From the UHGV virus genome UHGV-0101776: a stretch of 11,244 bases of DNA. One strand, given 5' to 3'. This DNA is from a virus. The position numbers and the translations under genes are program-made. Below, piece after piece: positions 697 through 7,206 of this stretch; the first letter of the stretch is position 1; the number at the start of each line of letters is the position of its first letter. The notes under the pieces were generated by a model. It saw only the letters and a list, made by a program, of their open reading frames with translations, had not been told where the DNA came from and did no database searches.

Positions 697-778
697 AAAG
701 AATATACTTAATAATATATACAGTAAGAACCATTAGTAACGATAACCCTGCTATCAGCTCAGTGATGTAGATGGTCAT
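674..778 (-). CDS. Small hydrophobic peptide (34 aa), possibly translationally coupled to the helicase
   Basis: The ATG overlaps the helicase TGA stop (TGATG) and is preceded by a strong SD, AAAGGAGG, 7 nt upstream. Product MTIYITELIAGLSLLMVLTVYIIKYILYANKKTN has a single predicted TM helix. Overlaps the HNH start by 23 nt. Below the ORF-track size cutoff. Confidence 0.3.
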   Translation of the reverse strand: MTIYITELIAGLSLLMVLTVYIIKYILYANKKTN

Positions 779-2214
779 CAGAATCCTCCTTTCTTCTTGG
801 ATTGCGGTTCCTCGCGTTCACGGCGGCGCATTTCAGCGGACTGTTGGTCTGTGTCATAAATAGCGCCATTTGCCTGAATGCAATACACCGTGCCGGTATT
901 GCCATGACGATTGAGACGAAGGATTAGTTCGGTTTCACCAGGTGGAACACTGTCATCAAAAGCACCTTCACGATGGATCCCCACCCAATAATCGCAATCC
1001 TGTTCAATCTGCCCTGTATCTCGTGAGTCACTTGGTAATGGGCGTTTATTGGTTCTGCTTTCCAGTGCGCGGTTAAGCTGCGTCAGAAGCACAACAACGC
1101 AATCAAGCTCTTTGGCAAGGTTCTTCAGTCCTTTGGTGATCATGCCGTAAGCAAGGTCGTTGCGATCGGCCTTCTCAGCAGTCATTAGTGTCAGGTAATC
1201 GACCAGAATCATGCCAACACATCCTTTTTCTCGCTTGATTCGACGACTTTCGCTGACGATTTGAGCCAGAGATAATCCCGGCGTGTCGTCGATGTAAAGC
1301 AGGTCGATTTCACTCAAGCGATTGGCTGTTTCGATCGCCCTGTTGAAGTCACCATCGTAATCACCCTGATAGCCGTCATCAGCGTCATTTGTCGCCGGAA
1401 GGTAAAAAATATTCGGGTTAACACCTGACTTCTGTCCTACCAGTTTTTCCAGTATCTGGTCACCGGGCATTTCAAGGCTGAACATCAGAGCGGGCTTTTT
1501 CTCATGCACTGCGCAGTTGATTGCCATCTGGCTGTATAGCGTCGTTTTCCCCATCTTAGGGCGAGCGCCAATGACAAACAGAGAGCCTTTCACCAGACCT
1601 TTCGGTGACAGCATCCTGTCCAGCGATGGGATCCCTGTGCTCATTCCTCGTTGTTCGCCTGACGGGTCAAATCGCTTCTCAAGGTCGCTAACCCAGTCTT
1701 CCATGACCTCACCAAATGAGCGAAGGCCGCGACGCGATCCGGTTTTTGCATGGTCTGTCAGTTGCGTAAAAATCGCCTGAATAGCTTCGTACTTCTGCGT
1801 CGCAGTCATTCCGTTGCGGGAATAGAGCAATTCCGTCGCTTCAGTCATGCGGTTGATGGCGTAGCGTTCCATTGCGGTTTCACGAACCTGCATTGCATAG
1901 GCAACGATGTTTGCTGCGCTTGGCGTGTTCTTTGCGATCTCAGCGATATAAGCAAAACCGCCAACAGACGCCGTTAACGATTTACGCTCCAGTTCATCGA
2001 AAAGCGTCAGGCCATCTACTGGCTTTTGCTCCCGGTGCATTCTGGTTATTTCTTCGAAAAGGATTTTGTGTGGTCGGCTGTAAAATGAATCAGGCTTCAG
2101 CATCGCCAGAACTTTCTGGACGCGCTCACTGCTGTCATCATCCAGAAGCAATCCACCAATCACCGCCTGCTCTGCCTCGATGCTATGGGGCGGCGCATAA
2201 AAATTATCGGTCAT
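778..2214 (-). CDS. DnaB-family replicative DNA helicase (phage P22 gene 12-type)
   Basis: Walker A GARPKMGKTTL, Walker B-like ILVDYLTLM and the DnaB-like LLTQLNR motif. The ATG at 2214 overlaps the upstream initiator stop (ATGACCGATAA) with GAGG upstream. The ORF track's longer form starts at a GTG at 2229; the ATG is preferred. Confidence 0.88.
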   Translation of the reverse strand: MTDNFYAPPHSIEAEQAVIGGLLLDDDSSERVQKVLAMLKPDSFYSRPHKILFEEITRMHREQKPVDGLTLFDELERKSLTASVGGFAYIAEIAKNTPSAANIVAYAMQVRETAMERYAINRMTEATELLYSRNGMTATQKYEAIQAIFTQLTDHAKTGSRRGLRSFGEVMEDWVSDLEKRFDPSGEQRGMSTGIPSLDRMLSPKGLVKGSLFVIGARPKMGKTTLYSQMAINCAVHEKKPALMFSLEMPGDQILEKLVGQKSGVNPNIFYLPATNDADDGYQGDYDGDFNRAIETANRLSEIDLLYIDDTPGLSLAQIVSESRRIKREKGCVGMILVDYLTLMTAEKADRNDLAYGMITKGLKNLAKELDCVVVLLTQLNRALESRTNKRPLPSDSRDTGQIEQDCDYWVGIHREGAFDDSVPPGETELILRLNRHGNTGTVYCIQANGAIYDTDQQSAEMRRREREEPQSKKKGGF

Positions 2215-3094
2215 CGTGTTCACCCTCACGAACTTTCAGGTAGGTATTATCGTTAAGCAGGAAATCAAATCCCTTTTTGTGCCAGACGGTTCCGCGTTGA
2301 TGGTTTGGGCGCTCTTCGAACATCCATCGGCAATTTTCGCCAACGTAGCTCAAATAATTTCTCCAGTCCTGCATCGTGAACCCATGCCCGTCAAGTTGGC
2401 GTGTTATTACTCCGGCTTTGCGCCAGAACGTTCGGATCTGGTTTTTACGCTTGTCATTCAGTGCGCGGATTCTTGGCGCTTCAGGAAGGATTTCGTGGTA
2501 AGCATCGACAACATCCTGACAGCTGACGGAAGGTTTTTTCTTGTCAGACTTTTTGTCTGCTGTGGCACTCTCTAATACGTCAGTATTAGAGATATTATTT
2601 ATATTATTGTTTATGGACAACCGTTGGACAACCGTTGGACAATCTCCGCTGAGAGCCGCGCCATTACTGGTGTTTGCGTTGGACAACCGTTGGACAACCG
2701 TTGGACAATTTTTTGCCTGAAAATCGTCATATTTAACGATTGTAAACAGGCTAAATTTCTTCCCCATCGAGCAAATATTAAGCATCCCTTTCGACTCAAA
2801 AGTCCGTAATAAGCTCCGAACTTTGTTGTCGGGGATGAATGTTTCTCTGACCAGCGACGGGCGTCCAGTTATCATCTGACCGCGATCAACAGTTATCGGC
2901 CCGATATCCGTATTGACGACAGTAGATTCGTGATTAGCCTTGAGGATTAAGTGAAGCCAAAGATGTACTGCCTGAGAGTCCTTATAGAGCCTGCTGTCCA
3001 TAAACTGGCGGTGTATAGAGACATACCCCATACTGGATGCCTCCTGATGTTGTACAGGGTTATGCCTGTAATCAGCTAACTTAACGACGCCCAT
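2204..3094 (-). CDS. Phage replication initiator (lambda O-like role), origin embedded in the gene
   Basis: 296-aa ORF directly upstream of, and overlapping, the helicase gene. Strong SD AGGAG 6 nt before the ATG at 3094. Iteron repeats lie inside the central part of the gene (translated as the repeated CPTVVQRLS), the same arrangement as lambda O/ori. Conserved-looking C-terminal domain (TFWRKAG...GTVWHKKGFDFLLNDNTYLKV). Confidence 0.75.
   Translation of the reverse strand: MGVVKLADYRHNPVQHQEASSMGYVSIHRQFMDSRLYKDSQAVHLWLHLILKANHESTVVNTDIGPITVDRGQMITGRPSLVRETFIPDNKVRSLLRTFESKGMLNICSMGKKFSLFTIVKYDDFQAKNCPTVVQRLSNANTSNGAALSGDCPTVVQRLSINNNINNISNTDVLESATADKKSDKKKPSVSCQDVVDAYHEILPEAPRIRALNDKRKNQIRTFWRKAGVITRQLDGHGFTMQDWRNYLSYVGENCRWMFEERPNHQRGTVWHKKGFDFLLNDNTYLKVREGEHDDR
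2585..2708. repeat. Replication-origin iterons plus adjacent AT-rich region
   Basis: Six copies of GGACAA at 11-bp spacing (unit GGACAACCGTT) in two clusters of three, 2615-2642 and 2681-2708. The clusters are 66 bp apart (6 x 11), so all copies are in helical phase. An AT-rich stretch at 2585-2614 flanks them on the side downstream in gene orientation. Confidence 0.75.
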
Positions 3095-3242
3095 GCTTCA
3101 CTCCTGCTTTGGCTAGTCTGTAAACACCAACAAGGCGCTCTGCGAACGCCCTGTTATTTGCTGCGGCTACCACTAATCCCTCAGGTGAATCAGGGTGTCG
3201 AATCTCTTCTTTTTCCTGGTATTTCTTACGACGTTTTGTCAT
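3078..3242 (-). CDS. Small basic hypothetical protein (54 aa) between cII and the initiator gene
   Basis: ATG at 3242 preceded by AGGAG (spacing 6). Product MTKRRKKYQEKEEIRHPDSPEGLVVAAANNRAFAERLVGVYRLAKAGVKHGRR. The stop overlaps the initiator start by 17 nt. Not in the ORF track (under 60 aa). Confidence 0.4.
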
Positions 3243-3253
3243 AATTACTCCTG

Positions 3254-3330
3254 TGGATTGATCCAGTAATTCCCTCAGAATTGCATATCAATTTGCTTAG
3301 AGTCCCCGGCGGCCACCGGGGATTTTTTCT
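3254..3330 (+). ncRNA. oop: oop-like antisense RNA overlapping the cII 3' end, with intrinsic terminator
   Basis: The segment gatccagtaat...cctcagaa... ends in the hairpin ccccgg-cggcca-ccgggg plus attttttcttt (3305-3330). It closely resembles my recollection of lambda oop RNA in sequence, length (about 77 nt) and position antisense to the cII 3' end. CATAAT at 3240-3245 is a candidate -10 for Po. Confidence 0.6.
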
Positions 3331-3571
3331 TTGTGATTCCATCAAGCGCATACTTAAAAGCCCTACTAATCGGACTGATGTCTGATGCCATTCCGAAAGC
3401 ACACAAGACTGAAGCAATAAATCTCCAGTCCGTTCTGCTTATCTTCGATTCATGACAGCCAATCATCTTTGCCAGACCGCGCTGGGTAAGCGTTGACAGG
3501 TTGATGAGTAAATCTGTTTCTGCGCGATCAACGTCACGCTGGGATAGTTTGCTGTAACTTGTTTGTTCCAT
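3275..3571 (-). CDS. cII: CII-like transcriptional activator
   Basis: 98 aa, with clear similarity to lambda CII in the HTH and C-terminal parts (...KISRTDW...KKKSPVAAGDSKQIDMQF versus lambda ...QISRWKRDW...KKRPAATERSEQIQMEF). Sits immediately downstream of cro and nutR. Confidence 0.85.
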   Translation of the reverse strand: MEQTSYSKLSQRDVDRAETDLLINLSTLTQRGLAKMIGCHESKISRTDWRFIASVLCAFGMASDISPISRAFKYALDGITKKKSPVAAGDSKQIDMQF

Positions 3572-3585
3572 TTCTTATGATTTCC
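3549..3585 (+). promoter_or_regulatory. Candidate PRE establishment promoter with CII-binding repeat
   Basis: TTGC-N6-TTGT at 3549-3562 on the plus strand, inside cII codons 3-7. This is the same position as the TTGC-N6-TTGC CII site of lambda PRE. A TATGAT -10-like hexamer lies at 3577-3582. Orientation would drive transcription antisense through cro into cI. Confidence 0.5.
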
Positions 3586-3656
3586 AATAGTGAATAGCTA
3601 GTTGAAAGGTATGCGTGGAAACGCATATGGCCTTGGTTGGTCAGATATTCTGGGAT

Positions 3657-3702
3657 TCGCTTTTCAGCGACGTAGGACGAATGTCCGTTGTTACAAAGAG
3701 CG
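3657..3702 (-). promoter_or_regulatory. nutR-like site (boxA plus boxB hairpin)
   Basis: On the minus-strand transcript just after the cro stop: boxA-like CGCTCTTTG (reverse complement of 3694-3702), then after about 23 nt the hairpin UCGCU-GAAA-AGCGA (reverse complement of 3657-3670), a 5-bp stem with a GNRA-type loop like lambda boxB. Confidence 0.5.
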
Positions 3703-3709
3703 GGGTTAC

Positions 3710-3943
3710 TTATGCTGCTGATGCTCTACGCGATACGAACACCAGATTTTCCTTTTTCACAGGTTTATAACCCGTGAAATTACGAGTGGCTTCTTCGATT
3801 GCATTCGCTTTATCTGGGGAAGCTCTTCGAAACCCATATGCAATCTGATCAAGATAGCCAACTGAAGTATTCGCTAATGCGGCGAGTCGCTTCCATTCCT
3901 CACTAGAAGCCTCTTTTCGCCAGCGTAGTAGTTCATTACTCAT
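3710..3943 (-). CDS. cro: Cro-like HTH repressor
   Basis: 77-aa ORF divergent from cI across the operator region, first gene of the operon containing cII. GGAGG SD 6 nt before the ATG. HTH-like segment WKRLAALANTSVGYLDQIAYG. Confidence 0.7.
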   Translation of the reverse strand: MSNELLRWRKEASSEEWKRLAALANTSVGYLDQIAYGFRRASPDKANAIEEATRNFTGYKPVKKENLVFVSRRASAA

Positions 3944-4056
3944 TAGTGCCTCCGTTTATCACACAGAGCAACTTTACCATTTTGATAAATAAACTGCAAT
4001 GGAGATTTATCAAAATGCGTATTTATCCATTTGCTAAATAGAGGGAGAATCGTGGG
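3944..4056. promoter_or_regulatory. OR operator region with divergent promoters (PR toward cro, PRM toward cI)
   Basis: Three ATTTATC-containing operator-like sites: reverse complement of 3973-3989 (TTTATCAAAATGGTAAA), 4006-4022 (TTTATCAAAATGCGTAT) and 4022-4038 (TTTATCCATTTGCTAAA). Candidate PR on the minus strand: -35 TTGCAG (reverse complement of 3994-3999), 17-bp spacer, -10 TAAAGT (reverse complement of 3971-3976). PRM was not confidently placed. Confidence 0.7.
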
Positions 4057-4761
4057 ATGGAAAACAAAGATATTCGCAAATCGAATCTGGCGTTTTTGCT
4101 AGATGAGCATAAAAAAATCGCGGGTAACACTAATGCAAGCTTTGCCGATAAGCTTGGAGTTAGCCCTTCTCAACTCACGCAAGTCTCCGGTGAAAAAAGC
4201 ACTCGAAACATAGGGGATAAACTAGCAAGAAAATTCGAAGCCGCACTTGGGTTACCTAATGGGTGGCTTGATTTGGTACATGATGTAACACCAATTGCAT
4301 CATGCTCAGATTCTTTAACTTTTGTCGGTCAGGTAAGAAAAGGGTTAGTGCGCGTGGTTGGTGAGGCAATTCTTGGTGTTGATGGTGCCATCGAGATGAC
4401 CGAAGAGCGCGATGGGTGGCTCAAGATTTATAGCGATGATCCAGATGCCTTTGGTCTTCGTGTGAAAGGAGACAGCATGTGGCCTAGAATAAAATCAGGA
4501 GAATATGTACTCATTGAGCCTAACACCAAAGTATTCCCGGGGGATGAGGTGTTTGTCAGAACCGTTGAAGGACACAACATGATCAAGATTCTTGGCTATG
4601 ACAGAGATGGAGAATACCAATTTACAAGCATCAACCAGGACCACAGGCCAATAACGTTACCTTATCATCAAGTAGCAAAGGTGGAGTATGTGGCTGGTAT
4701 TCTGAAGCAATCTCGTCATCTGGATGACATCGAGGCAAGGGAGTGGCTGAAAAGTTTGTGA
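4057..4761 (+). CDS. cI: CI-type prophage repressor (N-terminal HTH, C-terminal S24/LexA-like autopeptidase)
   Basis: 234 aa. N-terminal HTH region; C-terminal domain with the GDSMWP serine motif typical of LexA/CI self-cleaving repressors. SD GAGGGAG upstream. Divergent from cro. Confidence 0.88.
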   Translation: MENKDIRKSNLAFLLDEHKKIAGNTNASFADKLGVSPSQLTQVSGEKSTRNIGDKLARKFEAALGLPNGWLDLVHDVTPIASCSDSLTFVGQVRKGLVRVVGEAILGVDGAIEMTEERDGWLKIYSDDPDAFGLRVKGDSMWPRIKSGEYVLIEPNTKVFPGDEVFVRTVEGHNMIKILGYDRDGEYQFTSINQDHRPITLPYHQVAKVEYVAGILKQSRHLDDIEAREWLKSL

Positions 4762-4884
4762 CTTCAAGTACGCGACAAGCCCCGTCCTTCAGGGCGTGGA
4801 GGATGTCAAAATAACTTTAAATAACACACCACCAACATTTAACACATTGAATTAAAAAACCTACAATATTTGATGAGAGGCGTT

Positions 4885-5205
4885 ATGGAACCGGTCAAAA
4901 TTAAACCATCTGTGGATTATATTGAAACCTATGCGGACTTCGCTAGTTTTGCTCCACTACCGGGAGCGGAAAAAAATCTCATTTGTATACATTTTATCGC
5001 AAACAAGTCAATACCTGCGGTACTATCCCAAAATGATATACCAGATCAACCAGGTAGAGCGAATATGCAGATAGGCTCTGTAAATGAACTCAATCAGCAA
5101 TGCACTGTGATAATGCCAATGGCACAACTAAAGGCTCTTCAAGAGAATATAGTTCTTCTTTTCGAACAATTAGAGGCACAAAACTCTAATGGAGCGAAGT
5201 CGTAA
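4885..5205 (+). CDS. Hypothetical protein A of a two-gene moron in the rexA/rexB-equivalent slot
   Basis: ORF-track ORF 4870..5205. Preferred start is the ATG at 4885, with GAGG 5 nt upstream (alternative ATG at 4873). 107 aa with no recognisable motif. AT-rich. The stop overlaps the next start (TAATG). Confidence 0.5.
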   Translation: MEPVKIKPSVDYIETYADFASFAPLPGAEKNLICIHFIANKSIPAVLSQNDIPDQPGRANMQIGSVNELNQQCTVIMPMAQLKALQENIVLLFEQLEAQNSNGAKS

Positions 5206-5888
5206 TGCAACAACCGGAAGAAGTAGGTGATTTAACTATTACTTACAAAACATCAAGTATTGTTAAACCACTGCAAGTTTCCCTGAATAACGTTAATACT
5301 CGCGATTTCATGATGTTCATGGAAACAGCAAAAGGTAATCTGTTTTCTACGCCTATTTCCTCTTATTCACCAAAAAACATGGTGGATGATGCGACCAATT
5401 CCCAGCTAACTGCTACAATCGTAGATAAAGGAGGGGTTGCCGATTGTAAAGGACAATCTAATGTTATCCCACCGTACGAGGAAACTCCTATACAGGGAAC
5501 CGCAATGTCCGATTTGAGCAGAAACGAAATACAGGCACTTCTGAAGGCAAATAAAGCTGAAGTGGATGCAGTGGCCTCAAAAATGCAGGCTGATATGGCC
5601 AAATGGCGTGAACTAATGGCTTCAGATATAAAGGAGATGAAGCATTTAGTTGTTACTCAGCACGAACAAATCAACAGTCGTCTGGACATACAATCGAGTA
5701 GAATTGAGAGTGCCCTTGACTCCCAATCAAAAAAGATCGATGCAGCTCTTTCTGTTCAAGAGGCAAAGTTAGAAGGTAAGCTTAGTGATGTTAAGCTTGA
5801 TATAATCAAATGGGCCCTTGGCTTGCCAGCATTAGCATTTACTGTATATAAAATCTACGGATTGCTCTCTGGAGTCTCAACCCCCTAA
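5205..5888 (+). CDS. Hypothetical membrane-anchored coiled-coil protein B of the two-gene moron
   Basis: 227 aa. N-terminal globular part, a central heptad-like coiled-coil region (about residues 110-200) and a C-terminal hydrophobic helix IIKWALGLPALAFTVYKIYGLLSGV. Start overlaps the stop of protein A. Followed by an intrinsic terminator. Confidence 0.6.
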   Translation: MQQPEEVGDLTITYKTSSIVKPLQVSLNNVNTRDFMMFMETAKGNLFSTPISSYSPKNMVDDATNSQLTATIVDKGGVADCKGQSNVIPPYEETPIQGTAMSDLSRNEIQALLKANKAEVDAVASKMQADMAKWRELMASDIKEMKHLVVTQHEQINSRLDIQSSRIESALDSQSKKIDAALSVQEAKLEGKLSDVKLDIIKWALGLPALAFTVYKIYGLLSGVSTP

Positions 5889-5893
5889 TACAC

Positions 5894-5920
5894 ACCCGGC
5901 CTCAGTGCCGGGTTTTCTTT
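5894..5920 (+). terminator. Rho-independent terminator ending the cI-moron transcription unit
   Basis: Hairpin acccggc-ctcagt-gccgggt followed by tttcttt, immediately after the protein B stop and before OL. Confidence 0.7.
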
Positions 5921-6046
5921 GCCTCACGATCCCCACACCTAATAACACCATAACCAATTGTATTTGTTGAAAAATAAACAGATACAACTCACTAAAACGC
6001 GCAATTCTGATCCCCCTCAAGTCTCTTTATTCCTTCTGATAAATTC

Positions 6047-6145
6047 CTGCAATCAAATAAAAAACCATAATAATCAACAGGATATTTGAAAACTAAAACA
6101 ATTTATCATTTTGCTATTGCCATTAATTTATCATTTCGATAAAGT
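6047..6145 (+). promoter_or_regulatory. OL operator region with candidate PL promoter
   Basis: ATTTATC-containing operator-like sites at 6047-6054 (inverted), 6101-6116 (ATTTATCATTTTGCTA, near-identical to the OR site at 4021-4036) and the palindrome TTTATCATTTCGATAAA at 6127-6143. Candidate PL: -35 TTGCCA (6117-6122), 17-bp spacer, -10 TAAAGT (6140-6145). This is the same architecture as the candidate PR. Confidence 0.7.
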
Positions 6146-6191
6146 TAACTCATCAGCAGGACGCTGTAAGCCAAACGGAACAGACTGGCAG

Positions 6192-6237
6192 GCTCTTTAA
6201 ACAACGTCGAACACTCGACTACGTGGCTGAAAAGCCA
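6192..6237 (+). promoter_or_regulatory. nutL-like site (boxA plus boxB hairpin)
   Basis: boxA-like GCTCTTTAA at 6192-6200 and, about 23 nt downstream, the hairpin UGGCU-GAAA-AGCCA (6224-6237). The architecture and boxA-boxB spacing match the nutR candidate. Confidence 0.55.
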
Positions 6238-6260
6238 GATCACCCAACCACATAAGCTGT

Positions 6261-6313
6261 GGGATGCAATGCCGAAGCAACTCTCTCAGGAGTAGCTTCG
6301 GGATTGCATCGCC
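6261..6313 (+). promoter_or_regulatory. Long imperfect hairpin in the N leader (candidate RNase III processing or translation-control element)
   Basis: Arms gggatgcaatgccgaagc (6261-6278) and gcttcgggattgcatcgcc (6295-6313) pair over about 17 bp with one mismatch and one bulge, enclosing a 16-nt loop. Located between nutL and the N SD (GGGAGG at 6325-6330). Confidence 0.45.
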
Positions 6314-6335
6314 AGAGTTTATTCGGGAGGAATCC

Positions 6336-6608
6336 ATGTCCAGAAAAACAGAATTTAAAGGAACCGCAGCTTCTCGCCGTAGAGAGCGTCGCGCAAATCT
6401 GCAAAGTCAGGAGGCGATCAGCTCCGACAAGCTACACAGGCCAACCCCTTCACGAGTGGTCTTGCAATGCAAGCGCAAACCAGCAATGAGAGCAGAAGTG
6501 ATAACTCTGACAACGTTGACCAGAAAATATGAAGGTTCAACTTGTCTTCCGAACGTAGCTCTTTACGCGGCAGGCTACCGGAAATCAAAACAACTGACGG
6601 CGAGATGA
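6336..6608 (+). CDS. N: N-like transcription antitermination protein
   Basis: 90 aa. N-terminal arginine-rich motif ASRRRERRANLQ, matching the RRRERRA of the lambda N ARM. Positioned downstream of PL/nutL with a leader of about 185 nt. The ORF-track frame 6264..6608 extends upstream; the ATG at 6336 has the SD. Confidence 0.7.
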   Translation: MSRKTEFKGTAASRRRERRANLQSQEAISSDKLHRPTPSRVVLQCKRKPAMRAEVITLTTLTRKYEGSTCLPNVALYAAGYRKSKQLTAR

Positions 6609-6624
6609 TAAATTCATTTGCTAA

Positions 6625-7206
6625 TTACTTGTTTTTGCCATGCTTATCCTGAGCGATAAGTTCATCCATAAGGCTGTCTGCCTTCCCGGCAAACCGAATG
6701 TAGCACTCATTTCTATAGCGTTCCGGGATAACAAAACGGTCGATTTCAGGATATCCAGTAGCAGAAGGTATCCGAATAAGAAGCCCTTTTTCGAGCAATG
6801 AGATTGCTTCAGGGCTTCCCTTTTCTGTCTTTAGCTGGTTATTCGCGGCTACAGCGAATGCCAAATACGCTCTTTCTCCAAGAGTTAACGAATCAAACAA
6901 ATCTTGCACATATTTTTCTTCTTTAGATTTGCGCTTCTGAGCAGCGGATACCTCAATTCTTTCAGTCACAGCGTGATAAGCGGAATTAACAACACCGTTA
7001 AGCACATAGCTAACGCAGAACAACAGGATGTAATACATCCAATAATAAGGAAGGATTTCTGGATTATGCAGGTTTATCCATTCTTTTACGCTTACCGGCA
7101 TAACAATAATCAATATGATCAGGATGATTAGCATATGAATCAACTGTTTAAGTGTCATTCCTTGCAGGAAAAAATGCATTAGTTCCTGCCACCATGAGTT
7201 GTTCAT
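6625..7206 (-). CDS. sieB: Superinfection exclusion protein B (SieB-like) membrane protein
   Basis: 193 aa with two N-terminal hydrophobic helices (LIHMLIILIILIIVMPV, YYWMYYILLFCVSYVL). Transcribed opposite to N, in the same relative position as lambda sieB. Identity is from recollection of the family. Confidence 0.65.
   Translation of the reverse strand: MNNSWWQELMHFFLQGMTLKQLIHMLIILIILIIVMPVSVKEWINLHNPEILPYYWMYYILLFCVSYVLNGVVNSAYHAVTERIEVSAAQKRKSKEEKYVQDLFDSLTLGERAYLAFAVAANNQLKTEKGSPEAISLLEKGLLIRIPSATGYPEIDRFVIPERYRNECYIRFAGKADSLMDELIAQDKHGKNK

What the first reader, a model, noticed from the sequence alone, without database searches (positions are those of the whole stretch)
3657..6237. 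Paired nutR/nutL sites with GNRA-tetraloop boxB and unusually long boxA-boxB spacing
Both nut candidates (nutR 3657-3702 on the minus strand, nutL 6192-6237 on the plus strand) share the same architecture: a boxA-like CGCTCTTT(G/A), about 22-23 nt of spacer, then a 5-bp stem closed by a GAAA tetraloop. Lambda has a GAAAA pentaloop and a spacer of about 8 nt. Two independent sites agreeing on this layout argues that it is functional and co-adapted to the ARM of the N-like protein at 6336-6608.
Basis: partly seen in the sequence, partly recalled or inferred. Interest (0 to 1): 0.5.

Follow-up and report, generated by a model that had tools for sequence, protein, structure and literature searches.

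The report
Phage N antitermination sites with tetraloop boxB
These are the two RNA sites (nutL and nutR) where a lambda-like prophage's N protein loads onto RNA polymerase to read through terminators; they are ordinary in kind, but comparison of about 400 related loci indicates that one base in the hairpin loop matches the site to the RNA-binding tip of its own N protein.

Summary
Both sites exist at the stated coordinates, and the composite motif occurs exactly twice against 0 expected by chance.

The window is a lambdoid immunity region. Its cI is 99% identical to phage H-19B cI. Its N gene is a different, 90-aa allele of the VT2-Sakai type.

The "long spacer" is not unstructured. Part of it extends boxA into an rrn-like GCUCUUU..ACAA. 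The rest is a small hairpin plus a conserved UACG linker. This two-hairpin layout is already known and has been tested experimentally in H-19B.

What differs here is the boxB loop. It is a true GNRA tetraloop (GAAA), where H-19B and P22 have GACAA and lambda has GAAAA.

Across about 400 related loci the loop type always matches the N arginine-rich motif (ARM):
- 77/77 and 85/85 when loci are seeded by the nutR sequence.
- Both alleles occur in each of four unrelated immunity families.
- Two reciprocal ARM/body chimeras follow the ARM.
- Eight other genera show the same pairing.

No mismatches were found. One natural hybrid pairs this N with lambda's nutR.

Verdict: genuine nut sites and a new loop variant of a known kind, very common in E. 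coli (14% of complete genomes). Binding specificity is inferred, not shown.

The parts
3657..3702 (-). nutR, whole site: boxA, spacer hairpin, UACG linker, boxB
   Evidence: It is 97% identical over about 400 nt to the H-19B cro-nutR-cII leader. The identical site is present in 72 related loci.
3688..3702 (-). nutR boxA, extended rrn-like form: CGCUCUUUGUAACAA
   Evidence: Read. Compared with rrn boxA and spacer in PMC2724277. Positions 3694 and 3692, with 3687 just 3' of this range, differ between N-allele groups.
3675..3686 (-). nutR spacer hairpin: GGAC-AUUC-GUCC
   Evidence: -5.2 kcal/mol, z = -3.85. Covariation across 43 unique sites (helix 1: compensatory changes at 5 of 5 pairs).
3657..3670 (-). 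nutR boxB: UCGCU GAAA AGCGA (5-bp stem, GNRA tetraloop at 3665-3662)
   Evidence: -6.5 kcal/mol. The loop indel column is the only column perfectly associated with N type in 135 loci.
6191..6237 (+). nutL, whole site: boxA, spacer hairpin, UACG linker, boxB
   Evidence: A 60-mer containing this site (window 6186-6245) is found in 762 of 5426 complete E. coli genomes.
6191..6204 (+). nutL boxA, extended form: GGCUCUUUAAACAA
   Evidence: PMC2724277.
6206..6219 (+). nutL spacer hairpin: GUCGA-ACAC-UCGAC
   Evidence: -5.7 kcal/mol, z = -2.95.
6224..6237 (+). nutL boxB: UGGCU GAAA AGCCA (GNRA tetraloop at 6229-6232)
   Evidence: -7.1 kcal/mol. Present in 79 of 80 loci that carry the 90-aa N.
6336..6608 (+). 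N antiterminator gene, 90 aa. ARM: GTAASRRRERRANLQSQEA
   Evidence: Pfam PF25694 at E = 1.6e-32. 42% identical to H-19B N, with a different ARM. Family alignment A1.
6117..6145 (+). pL-like promoter (TTGCCA-17-TAAAGT) with operator-like repeats at 6100-6141
   Evidence: families D1, I1.
3971..3999 (-). pR-like promoter (TTGCAG-17-TAAAGT) with operator-like repeats at 3971-4036
   Evidence: Read. It is an inverted copy of the pL region (I1). It fell below the threshold of the scan.
3710..3943 (-). cro (H-19B type), the gene just upstream of nutR
   Evidence: Differs by one residue from H-19B cro, which is annotated as cro in AF034975.
3275..3571 (-). cII, the first gene whose expression would depend on read-through after nutR
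   Evidence: Pfam Phage_CII at E = 2e-31.

Best explanation
The two elements are the nutL and nutR sites of a lambdoid prophage that combines H-19B-type immunity (cI and cro) with a VT2-Sakai-type N gene.

Proposed mechanism:
1. Transcripts from pL and pR carry the nut RNA.
2. Its rrn-like boxA recruits NusB/NusE.
3. The boxB hairpin, a canonical GNRA tetraloop (GAAA) closed by a U-A pair, is bound by the lambda-like arginine-rich motif of the 90-aa N (..SRRRERRANLQSQ..).
4. With NusA and NusG, the complex makes RNA polymerase read through the terminators ahead of cII-O-P and of the genes beyond N.

The extra length between boxA and boxB is a small hairpin plus a conserved UACG linker. This is the two-hairpin nut framework already described for H-19B.

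The loop is the specificity element. On the same framework, N proteins with an H-19B/P22-like ARM (RRRERLKAKALA..) use GACAA, and N proteins with the RRRxRRAxLQ ARM use GNRA. A single loop base, together with an ARM swap, re-pairs N with its sites.

Shown: sequence, folds, context, homology to an experimentally studied nutR, covariation, and a perfect ARM-loop association.
Inferred: binding, specificity and Nus-factor use.
For: [quoted passage not shown]

Not chance.

Structure. In one search, on 43 unique sites, 95.6% of cells pair, 8 of 10 pairs show compensatory changes, and the covariation score is 0.637 against 0.125 in shuffles (0 of 500 shuffles reach it). Slid controls score at most 0.087. 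My detector did not require the spacer helix, yet it pairs in 91% of cells and varies on both sides at 5 of 5 pairs.

ARM-loop matching:
- nutL: 79/80 and 79/80.
- nutR: 74/75 and 73/73.
- Four unrelated cro families each occur with both N alleles, and the loop follows N.
- Chimera P0055 (window-type ARM on an H-19B body and H-19B-type leader) has GAAA at both sites. Chimera P0025 (H-19B-like ARM on the 90-aa body, window-type boxA) has GACAA at both sites.
- The nutR of L162 and of L102 are identical except for one C in the loop, and they pair with different ARMs.
- Ten species-representative genomes, nine from eight other genera (Citrobacter, Atlantibacter, Enterobacter, Erwinia, Pantoea, Kluyvera, Mixta, Sodalis) plus an unnamed Enterobacteriaceae genome, all have GNRA at both sites. 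Atlantibacter has GCAA at both.
- Reverse sampling seeded by the nutR sequence gives 77/77 and 85/85 with no cross-pairing.
- P22-like and 21-like ARMs in the same protein family carry their own cognate boxBs.
Against: No binding or antitermination data exist for this allele.

Within loci that share H-19B-type immunity, the nutR differences lie in a haplotype block of about 760 bp (window 4425-3687). About 20 SNPs in that block are all perfectly associated with N type. In that subgroup, linkage alone could explain the match.

nutL is only about 100 nt from the ARM-coding sequence, so its match carries little weight on its own.

The IMG/VR loci are dominated by E. coli prophages and are not phylogenetically independent. 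The number of independent ARM/loop switches is small, perhaps 5-10.

My detector required the boxB stem to pair, so its 100% pairing is partly by construction.

The natural hybrid L040 (this N with lambda's GAAAA nutR) shows the ARM may not be strictly tetraloop-specific.

As I recall Neely & Friedman 2000 (text not held), deleting the H-19B spacer dyad has little effect. The hairpin may therefore be tolerated rather than needed.
Confidence: 0.8

Rival explanations
1. These are real nut sites, but GAAA versus GACAA is historical baggage rather than a specificity determinant. Both ARM types bind both loops adequately. The association reflects linkage, with immunity cassettes swapped between conserved flanks that carry N/nutL on one side and nutR/cII on the other.
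For: The haplotype block within H-19B-type immunity is perfectly associated with N type. nutL is adjacent to N. L040 shows this N coexisting with a lambda pentaloop nutR. From memory, unverified here: lambda and P22 N peptides cross-bind each other's boxB to some degree in vitro, and lambda N peptide binds a GAAA-tetraloop boxB.
Against: There were no mismatches among about 160 loci with both elements, in both sampling directions. The cII side is identical in both groups, and immunity regions are shared, so homologous exchange should generate mismatches. The L162 and L102 nutR differ only by the loop C yet pair with different ARMs. The reciprocal chimeras follow the ARM, not the N body, the boxA type or the leader type. 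Atlantibacter has GCAA at both of its sites.
Confidence: 0.15
2. The long, structured spacer is the key functional novelty. On this view the spacer hairpin is an obligatory docking site, for example for NusA or for blocking Rho loading, and it replaces the lambda-type single-stranded spacer. Its co-adaptation with N would then matter more than the boxB loop.
For: The hairpin is conserved by covariation across genera, with invariant flanks ACAA(C/U)G and (C)UACG. In H-19B nutR, NusA and Rho both footprint on the spacer (PMC3526286).
Against: The hairpin's stem and loop sequences vary freely (AUUC, ACAC, CGGA, GAAUAU and others), which does not fit sequence-specific recognition. The same hairpin (GGACAUUCGUCC) serves both ARM types. 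Recalled from Neely & Friedman 2000, not verified here: deleting the dyad has little effect, while breaking one arm inactivates the site through misfolding. N proteins of the same family with P22-like or 21-like ARMs work from short unstructured spacers.
Confidence: 0.2
3. The hairpins are chance or unrelated structures, such as terminator remnants or translational operators, and are not N-utilisation sites.
For: None specific. The simple terminator scan flags the nutL spacer stem on the opposite strand (6219-6206).
Against: The composite motif occurs twice against 0 expected. Both sites are in the canonical positions. nutR is homologous to the experimentally studied H-19B nutR. The architecture is conserved, with covariation, across eight other genera.
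Confidence: 0.02

Closest known systems
Phage H-19B N / NUT system (Neely & Friedman 2000, Mol Microbiol 38:1074; Sen laboratory work, e.g. PMC3526286)
   Same: The immunity region is the same (cI 99% identical). The nutR framework is the same: an identical spacer hairpin GGACAUUCGUCC, the UACG linker, the boxB stem UCGCU/AGCGA and the downstream leader. Both have two hairpins per nut site. The N proteins share the FKG..RRRER start, the HRPT motif and the C-terminal CLPNVALYAAGYRKSKQLTAR.
   Different: The boxB loop is GAAA (4 nt) where H-19B has GACAA (5 nt). The ARM is RRRERRANLQSQ where H-19B has RRRERLKAKALANGVLAR, which is 7 residues longer. N is 90 aa rather than 127 aa, and 42% identical. 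Both window sites have a near-consensus boxA, whereas H-19B nutL has none and H-19B nutR has GCUAUUUU.
Phage lambda N / boxB (GNRA-like pentaloop)
   Same: The ARM is lambda-like: lambda QTRRRERRAEKQAQW against window ASRRRERRANLQSQE. Both have a 5-bp stem with a U-A closing pair, and a loop that begins GAA and ends in A. Gene order and site positions are the same. A natural hybrid (L040) pairs this N with lambda's own nutR.
   Different: The loop has four bases, so there is no extruded fourth base. Glu stands where lambda has Trp18. The spacer is 23-24 nt with a hairpin, against 8-9 unstructured nt in lambda. boxA has the rrn-type CUUUA.
Phage P22 N (gp24) / boxB GACAA and phage 21 N / boxB
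   Same: They belong to the same mosaic N family: proteins with P22-like and 21-like ARMs share the window N's C-terminus. The principle of one ARM type per boxB type is the same.
   Different: P22-type sites have GACAA loops and short spacers of about 8-10 nt without a hairpin. Phage-21-type sites have a larger, different boxB.
E. coli rrn antitermination leader (boxA)
   Same: The boxA of both window sites resembles rrn UGCUCUUUA followed by ACAA.
   Different: rrn antitermination needs no N and no boxB. In the window, boxA is followed by two hairpins.

Membership tests
Lambdoid N/nut processive antitermination | Small N protein with an N-terminal arginine-rich motif | tested here: met
   Pfam PF25694 N_peptide at E = 1.6e-32, covering residues 1-90. 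The ARM is aligned with family members in A1.
Lambdoid N/nut processive antitermination | One nut site between pL and N, and one between cro and cII | tested here: met
   Gene map, pL-like promoter, pR-like promoter. nutR starts 8 nt after the cro stop codon. nutL ends 98 nt before the N start.
Lambdoid N/nut processive antitermination | boxA (CGCUCUU(U)A) 5' of boxB on the transcript | tested here: met
   CGCUCUUUG and GGCUCUUUA. Consensus taken from PMC2724277.
Lambdoid N/nut processive antitermination | boxB hairpin with a purine-rich GNRA-like loop, supported by covariation | tested here: met
   In one search, helix 2 has 3 of 5 pairs with compensatory changes, but my detector required the stem to pair.
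Lambdoid N/nut processive antitermination | N binds boxB and, with Nus factors, suppresses downstream terminators | not testable with these tools
   Needs RNA-binding and read-through assays.
Lambda-type nut (strict sense) | 5-nt loop GAAAA/GAAGA with an extruded fourth base, and an 8-9 nt unstructured spacer | tested here: not met
   The loop is 4 nt and the spacer is 23-24 nt with a hairpin. Lambda values from PMC2724277.
H-19B-type two-hairpin NUT | [quoted passage not shown] | tested here: met
   The nutR hairpin is identical to that of H-19B.
H-19B-type two-hairpin NUT | boxB loop GACAA paired with the H-19B ARM (RRRERLKAKALA..) | tested here: not met
   The loop is GAAA and the ARM is RRRERRANLQSQ.
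H-19B-type two-hairpin NUT | Independence from boxA, NusB and S10 (as recalled from Neely & Friedman 2000) | not testable with these tools
   Both window sites keep a near-consensus boxA, unlike H-19B nutL. This hints at boxA use, but it is only a hint.
P22-type nut | GACAA pentaloop and a short spacer | tested here: not met
   P22-type sites are shown.

The most novel reading that the evidence does not exclude
A large natural class of N antiterminators uses a canonical four-base GNRA tetraloop boxB, with no extruded loop base. In lambda and P22 an extruded base is part of the recognised surface. In lambda, as I recall it, that base is needed for NusA-dependent complex assembly rather than for N binding. 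If so, this class must assemble the N-NusA-RNA complex differently, perhaps using the adjacent spacer hairpin and the rrn-grade boxA. A one-base loop indel together with an ARM swap would then act as a natural orthogonality switch, keeping co-resident Stx and other lambdoid prophages from trans-activating one another.
Probability: 0.3. Interest if true: 0.55.

Novelty: new variant of a known kind. Interest (0 to 1): 0.4.

Why it matters
N/boxB is a textbook model of peptide-RNA recognition and a widely used tethering tool.

This finding adds a natural fourth specificity class, a true GNRA tetraloop with a lambda-like ARM that lacks the Trp. It sits on the same nut framework as the H-19B class and differs from it by a single loop base.

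That gives a clean, testable pair for two questions: how an ARM tells a tetraloop from a pentaloop, and whether the extruded base is really needed for Nus-factor assembly.

The allele is in about 14% of complete E. coli genomes, including Stx-converting phages such as VT2-Sakai. N-nut compatibility there affects whether co-resident prophages can cross-activate delayed-early and toxin-linked transcription.

As a genome feature it is otherwise ordinary: expected nut sites in an expected place.

Tried and rejected
- **Rfam:** a scan of 3200-6700 at E <= 1 found no family covering either site, only a chance rliG fragment.
- **Genome scan with A1:** It was repeated with the narrower A2, which by design recovered only RRRERRA-type ARMs.
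- **Regex bug:** the first regex for collecting nut sites missed all tetraloops because of greedy loop matching. Fixed.
- **Alignment problem:** MAFFT pushed the loop-length gap to the 3' end and put the boxB arms out of register. I re-aligned with an N placeholder in the tetraloops.
- **Linkage test within one immunity type:** I hoped this would separate selection from linkage. It instead showed a haplotype block fully associated with N type, so it is reported as a caveat, not as support.
- **Loci without nutR or N:** L045, L047, L334, L343 and L379 turned out to be deleted prophages. L214, L367, L373 and L376 are loci cut off at the contig end. None is informative.
- **Literature:** Neely & Friedman 2000 is not held, and its content is cited from memory only. 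Searches for a described GNRA-tetraloop boxB class or for VT2-Sakai-type nut sites found nothing. This does not prove that nothing has been published. Public records of VT2-Sakai and HK140 annotate N, and at most a "putative boxA".
- **Structure prediction:** not attempted, because ARMs are disordered without RNA.
Full report
**1. What is in the window**

The ORF map and Pfam scan show a lambdoid early region, inverted relative to the usual lambda map:
- DnaB-like helicase, 778-2229 (-)
- O-position gene, 2204-3094 (-)
- cII, 3275-3571 (-), Phage_CII at E = 2e-31
- cro, 3710-3943 (-)
- S24-type cI repressor, 4057-4761 (+)
- two unknown genes in the rex position, 4870-5888 (+)
- an intrinsic-terminator-like site, 5894-5913
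- a pL-like promoter, 6117-6145
- a 90-aa N protein, 6336-6608 (+), Pfam N_peptide at E = 1.6e-32
- sieB, 6625-7206 (-)

Operator-like repeats (ATTTATCAtTTTG) flank both promoters. The pR region (TTGCAG-17-TAAAGT, 3999-3971, minus strand) is an inverted copy of pL.

The cI protein is 232/233 identical to that of Stx1 phage H-19B. The N gene with nutL is the allele found in VT2-Sakai, Stx2 II, 2851, 2G7b and ev017, at 94-97% DNA identity. The window is therefore a mosaic of H-19B immunity and a Sakai-type N.

**2. The observation**

- nutR (minus strand, 3702-3657): CGCUCUUUG-UAACAAC-GGACAUUCGUCC-UACG-UCGCU-GAAA-AGCGA.
- nutL (plus strand, 6191-6237): GGCUCUUUA-AACAAC-GUCGAACACUCGAC-UACG-UGGCU-GAAA-AGCCA.

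The composite motif occurs exactly twice, and never in 200 shuffles. A looser detector also finds only these two sites.

Corrections: the nutL 9-mer starts with G, not C, and the spacers are 23 and 24 nt.

Each site has a 4-5 bp hairpin of its own, with z-scores of -3.9 and -3.0 when folded alone. The first spacer bases extend boxA to the rrn-like GCUCUUU..ACAA (rrn sequences in PMC2724277). No Rfam family covers the sites.

**3. Relation to H-19B**

The H-19B record (AF034975) gives two sites:
- nutR: GCUAUUUUCACAAUGGACAUUCGUCCUACG-UCGCU-GACAA-AGCGA
- nutL..ACAACGAUUCGAAUAUGAAUCUACG-GCGCU-GACAA-AGCGC

Over 400 nt of cro-nutR-cII leader, the window is 97% identical to H-19B. The differences cluster in boxA, plus one missing C in the boxB loop.

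H-19B nutR is experimentally characterised. Muteeb et al. [quoted passage not shown] Neely & Friedman 2000 is cited there, but its text is not held. As I recall it, the paper reported the spacer dyad symmetry, showed that breaking one arm inactivates NUT while deleting the dyad has little effect, and found that H-19B N does not need boxA, NusB or S10.

So the "unusually long spacing" is the known H-19B-type architecture. What is different in the window is the loop (GAAA against GACAA), a good boxA at both sites, and the N protein. N is 42% identical to H-19B N, and its ARM is RRRERRANLQSQ where H-19B has RRRERLKAKALANGVLAR.

**4. Does the loop follow the ARM?**

I collected 80 IMG/VR loci for each N allele.

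nutL:
- 90-aa N goes with UGGCU-GAAA-AGCCA in 79 of 80 loci.
- 127-aa N goes with GCGCU-GACAA-AGCGC in 79 of 80 loci.

nutR lies 1.4-3.7 kb away, across the immunity region:
- 90-aa N goes with GAAA in 74 of 75 loci.
- 127-aa N goes with GACAA in 73 of 73 loci.

Four unrelated cro families each occur with both N alleles, and the loop always follows N. In 135 loci, the loop indel is the only column around nutR that is perfectly associated with N type. A few columns in and next to boxA come close, and cII shows no association.

The N family is mosaic. ARMs of window, H-19B, P22 and phage-21 types are combined with different protein bodies. Two reciprocal chimeras are decisive:
- P0055 has the window-type ARM on an H-19B body with an H-19B-type leader that lacks boxA. 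It has GAAA at both sites.
- P0025 has an H-19B-like ARM on the 90-aa body with window-type boxA. It has GACAA at both sites.

The nutR of L162 and that of L102 are identical except for the loop C, and they pair with different ARMs.

Ten species-representative genomes with RRRERRA-type ARMs all have GNRA tetraloops at both sites. Nine come from other genera: Citrobacter, Atlantibacter, Enterobacter, Erwinia, Pantoea, Kluyvera, Mixta and Sodalis, plus an unnamed Enterobacteriaceae genome. Atlantibacter has GCAA at both of its sites.

Sampling in the reverse direction, seeded by the nutR sequence whatever the N, gave 77/77 and 85/85 with no cross-pairing.

P22-like and 21-like ARMs in the same family carry their own boxB types, with short unstructured spacers. 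The spacer hairpin therefore belongs to the framework shared by H-19B and the window, and the loop belongs to the ARM.

**5. Structure support**

On 43 unique sites (alignment A4):
- 95.6% of cells pair.
- 8 of 10 pairs show compensatory changes.
- The covariation score is 0.637 against 0.125 in shuffles (0 of 500 reach it).
- Slid controls score at most 0.087.

My detector did not require the spacer helix, yet it pairs in 91% of cells and all five of its pairs change on both sides. The boxB stem was required by the detector, so its 100% pairing is partly by construction. Its six different stem sequences still argue for structure.

**6. Caveats**

Within the 30 loci that share H-19B-type immunity, about 20 SNPs from the 5' half of cI through cro to the loop (window 4425-3687) are all perfectly associated with N type. 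In that subgroup the nutR-N match could be simple linkage.

The loci are mostly E. coli prophages and are not independent. The number of independent ARM/loop switches is small.

The one exception, L040, combines this N and a GAAA nutL with lambda's cro and nutR (GCCCU-GAAAA-AGGGC). This fits a lambda-like reader of the GNRA fold, but it also shows the ARM need not be strictly tetraloop-specific.

Nothing here measures binding.

**7. Mechanism and comparison**

The best reading is a standard N/nut antitermination module:
- boxA recruits NusB/NusE.
- The ARM binds boxB.
- NusA and NusG complete the complex.
- Polymerase then reads through the terminators after nutR (towards cII-O-P) and after N.

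The window ARM resembles lambda's (ASRRRERRANLQSQE against QTRRRERRAEKQAQW), with Glu at the Trp18 position. Its loop is what lambda's GAAAA or P22's GACAA would become once the extruded base is removed. PMC12027372 summarises lambda N recognising a GNRNA pentaloop that folds as a GNRA tetraloop with one base extruded.

The class is therefore a new loop/ARM variant on a known framework. It is not a new kind of system.

**8. Verdict**

The sites are very common: a 60-mer containing nutL is in 762 of 5426 complete E. coli genomes. They are unannotated in public records. Interest is moderate, at 0.4.

Noticed in passing
window 6259-6320 (+): A long, nearly perfect hairpin (GGGAUGCAAUGCCGAAGC...GCUUCGGGAUUGCAUC) lies between nutL boxB and the N start codon. 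The segment 6238-6340 folds at -51.3 kcal/mol. Its position recalls the RNase III-processed N-leader stem of lambda, which governs N translation (from memory).
   Followed up: partly
L040 (IMGVR_UViG_2531839234_000006): boxB at 1072-1086 (-), N at 3877-4149: A natural hybrid. It has the 90-aa N (RRRARRA ARM) and a GAAA nutL, together with a lambda-type cro end and lambda's own nutR (CGCTCTTACACATTCCA GCCCT GAAAA AGGGC). This suggests the ARM can use lambda's pentaloop.
   Followed up: partly
L169 (Atlantibacter subterraneus), nutL and nutR: Both sites have GCAA where the other loci have GAAA. The second loop base has changed in step at two sites about 1.7 kb apart, and the loop is still GNRA.
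   Followed up: no
window 6336-6608, N residue 17: The window N has RRRERRA, as lambda does. Nearly all of the 80 closest IMG/VR relatives have RRRARRA, and one has RRRDRRA. Other variants seen with GAAA nutR sites are RRRAHRAELQS, RRRELRA and RRRNRRLHLQP.
   Followed up: partly
window 3650-3710 (-) and 6185-6245 (+): In both sites the minimum-free-energy fold pairs boxA (GCUCUUU) with the boxB loop and 3' arm (AAAAGC). The spacer hairpin is kept in that fold. It is within about 1.5-3 kcal/mol of the two-hairpin fold, so it is a possible alternative NUT structure.
   Followed up: no
window 4425-3687: Among loci with H-19B-type immunity, a block of about 760 bp (5' half of cI, operators, cro, nutR) exists as two haplotypes that segregate perfectly with the N allele. 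Intermediate-frequency SNPs just beyond it (4563-4608) do not.
   Followed up: partly
window 4870-5205 and 5205-5888 (+): Two co-oriented genes occupy the rexA/rexB position between cI and pL. They have no confident Pfam family; the second has a weak sub-threshold coiled-coil hit (CCDC90-like). An intrinsic-terminator-like site follows at 5894-5913. They may be a lysogen-expressed exclusion or defence cassette. This slot is highly variable among relatives: RexA/RexB, DUF1828 and others were seen there.
   Followed up: no
window 3590-3625 (-), downstream of nutR boxB: A conserved small hairpin (AUGCGU-UUCC-ACGCAU) lies between nutR and cII, in the region that is the Rho-dependent tR1 in H-19B. 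It is invariant in all 135 aligned loci.
   Followed up: no
L045, L047, L334, L343, L379: These prophage remnants have lost either cro-nutR-cII-replication genes or N. In L045 and L047 a truncated cro is followed by a Q-like gene. They are examples of decayed lambdoid prophages that keep only one half of the N/nut system.
   Followed up: partly
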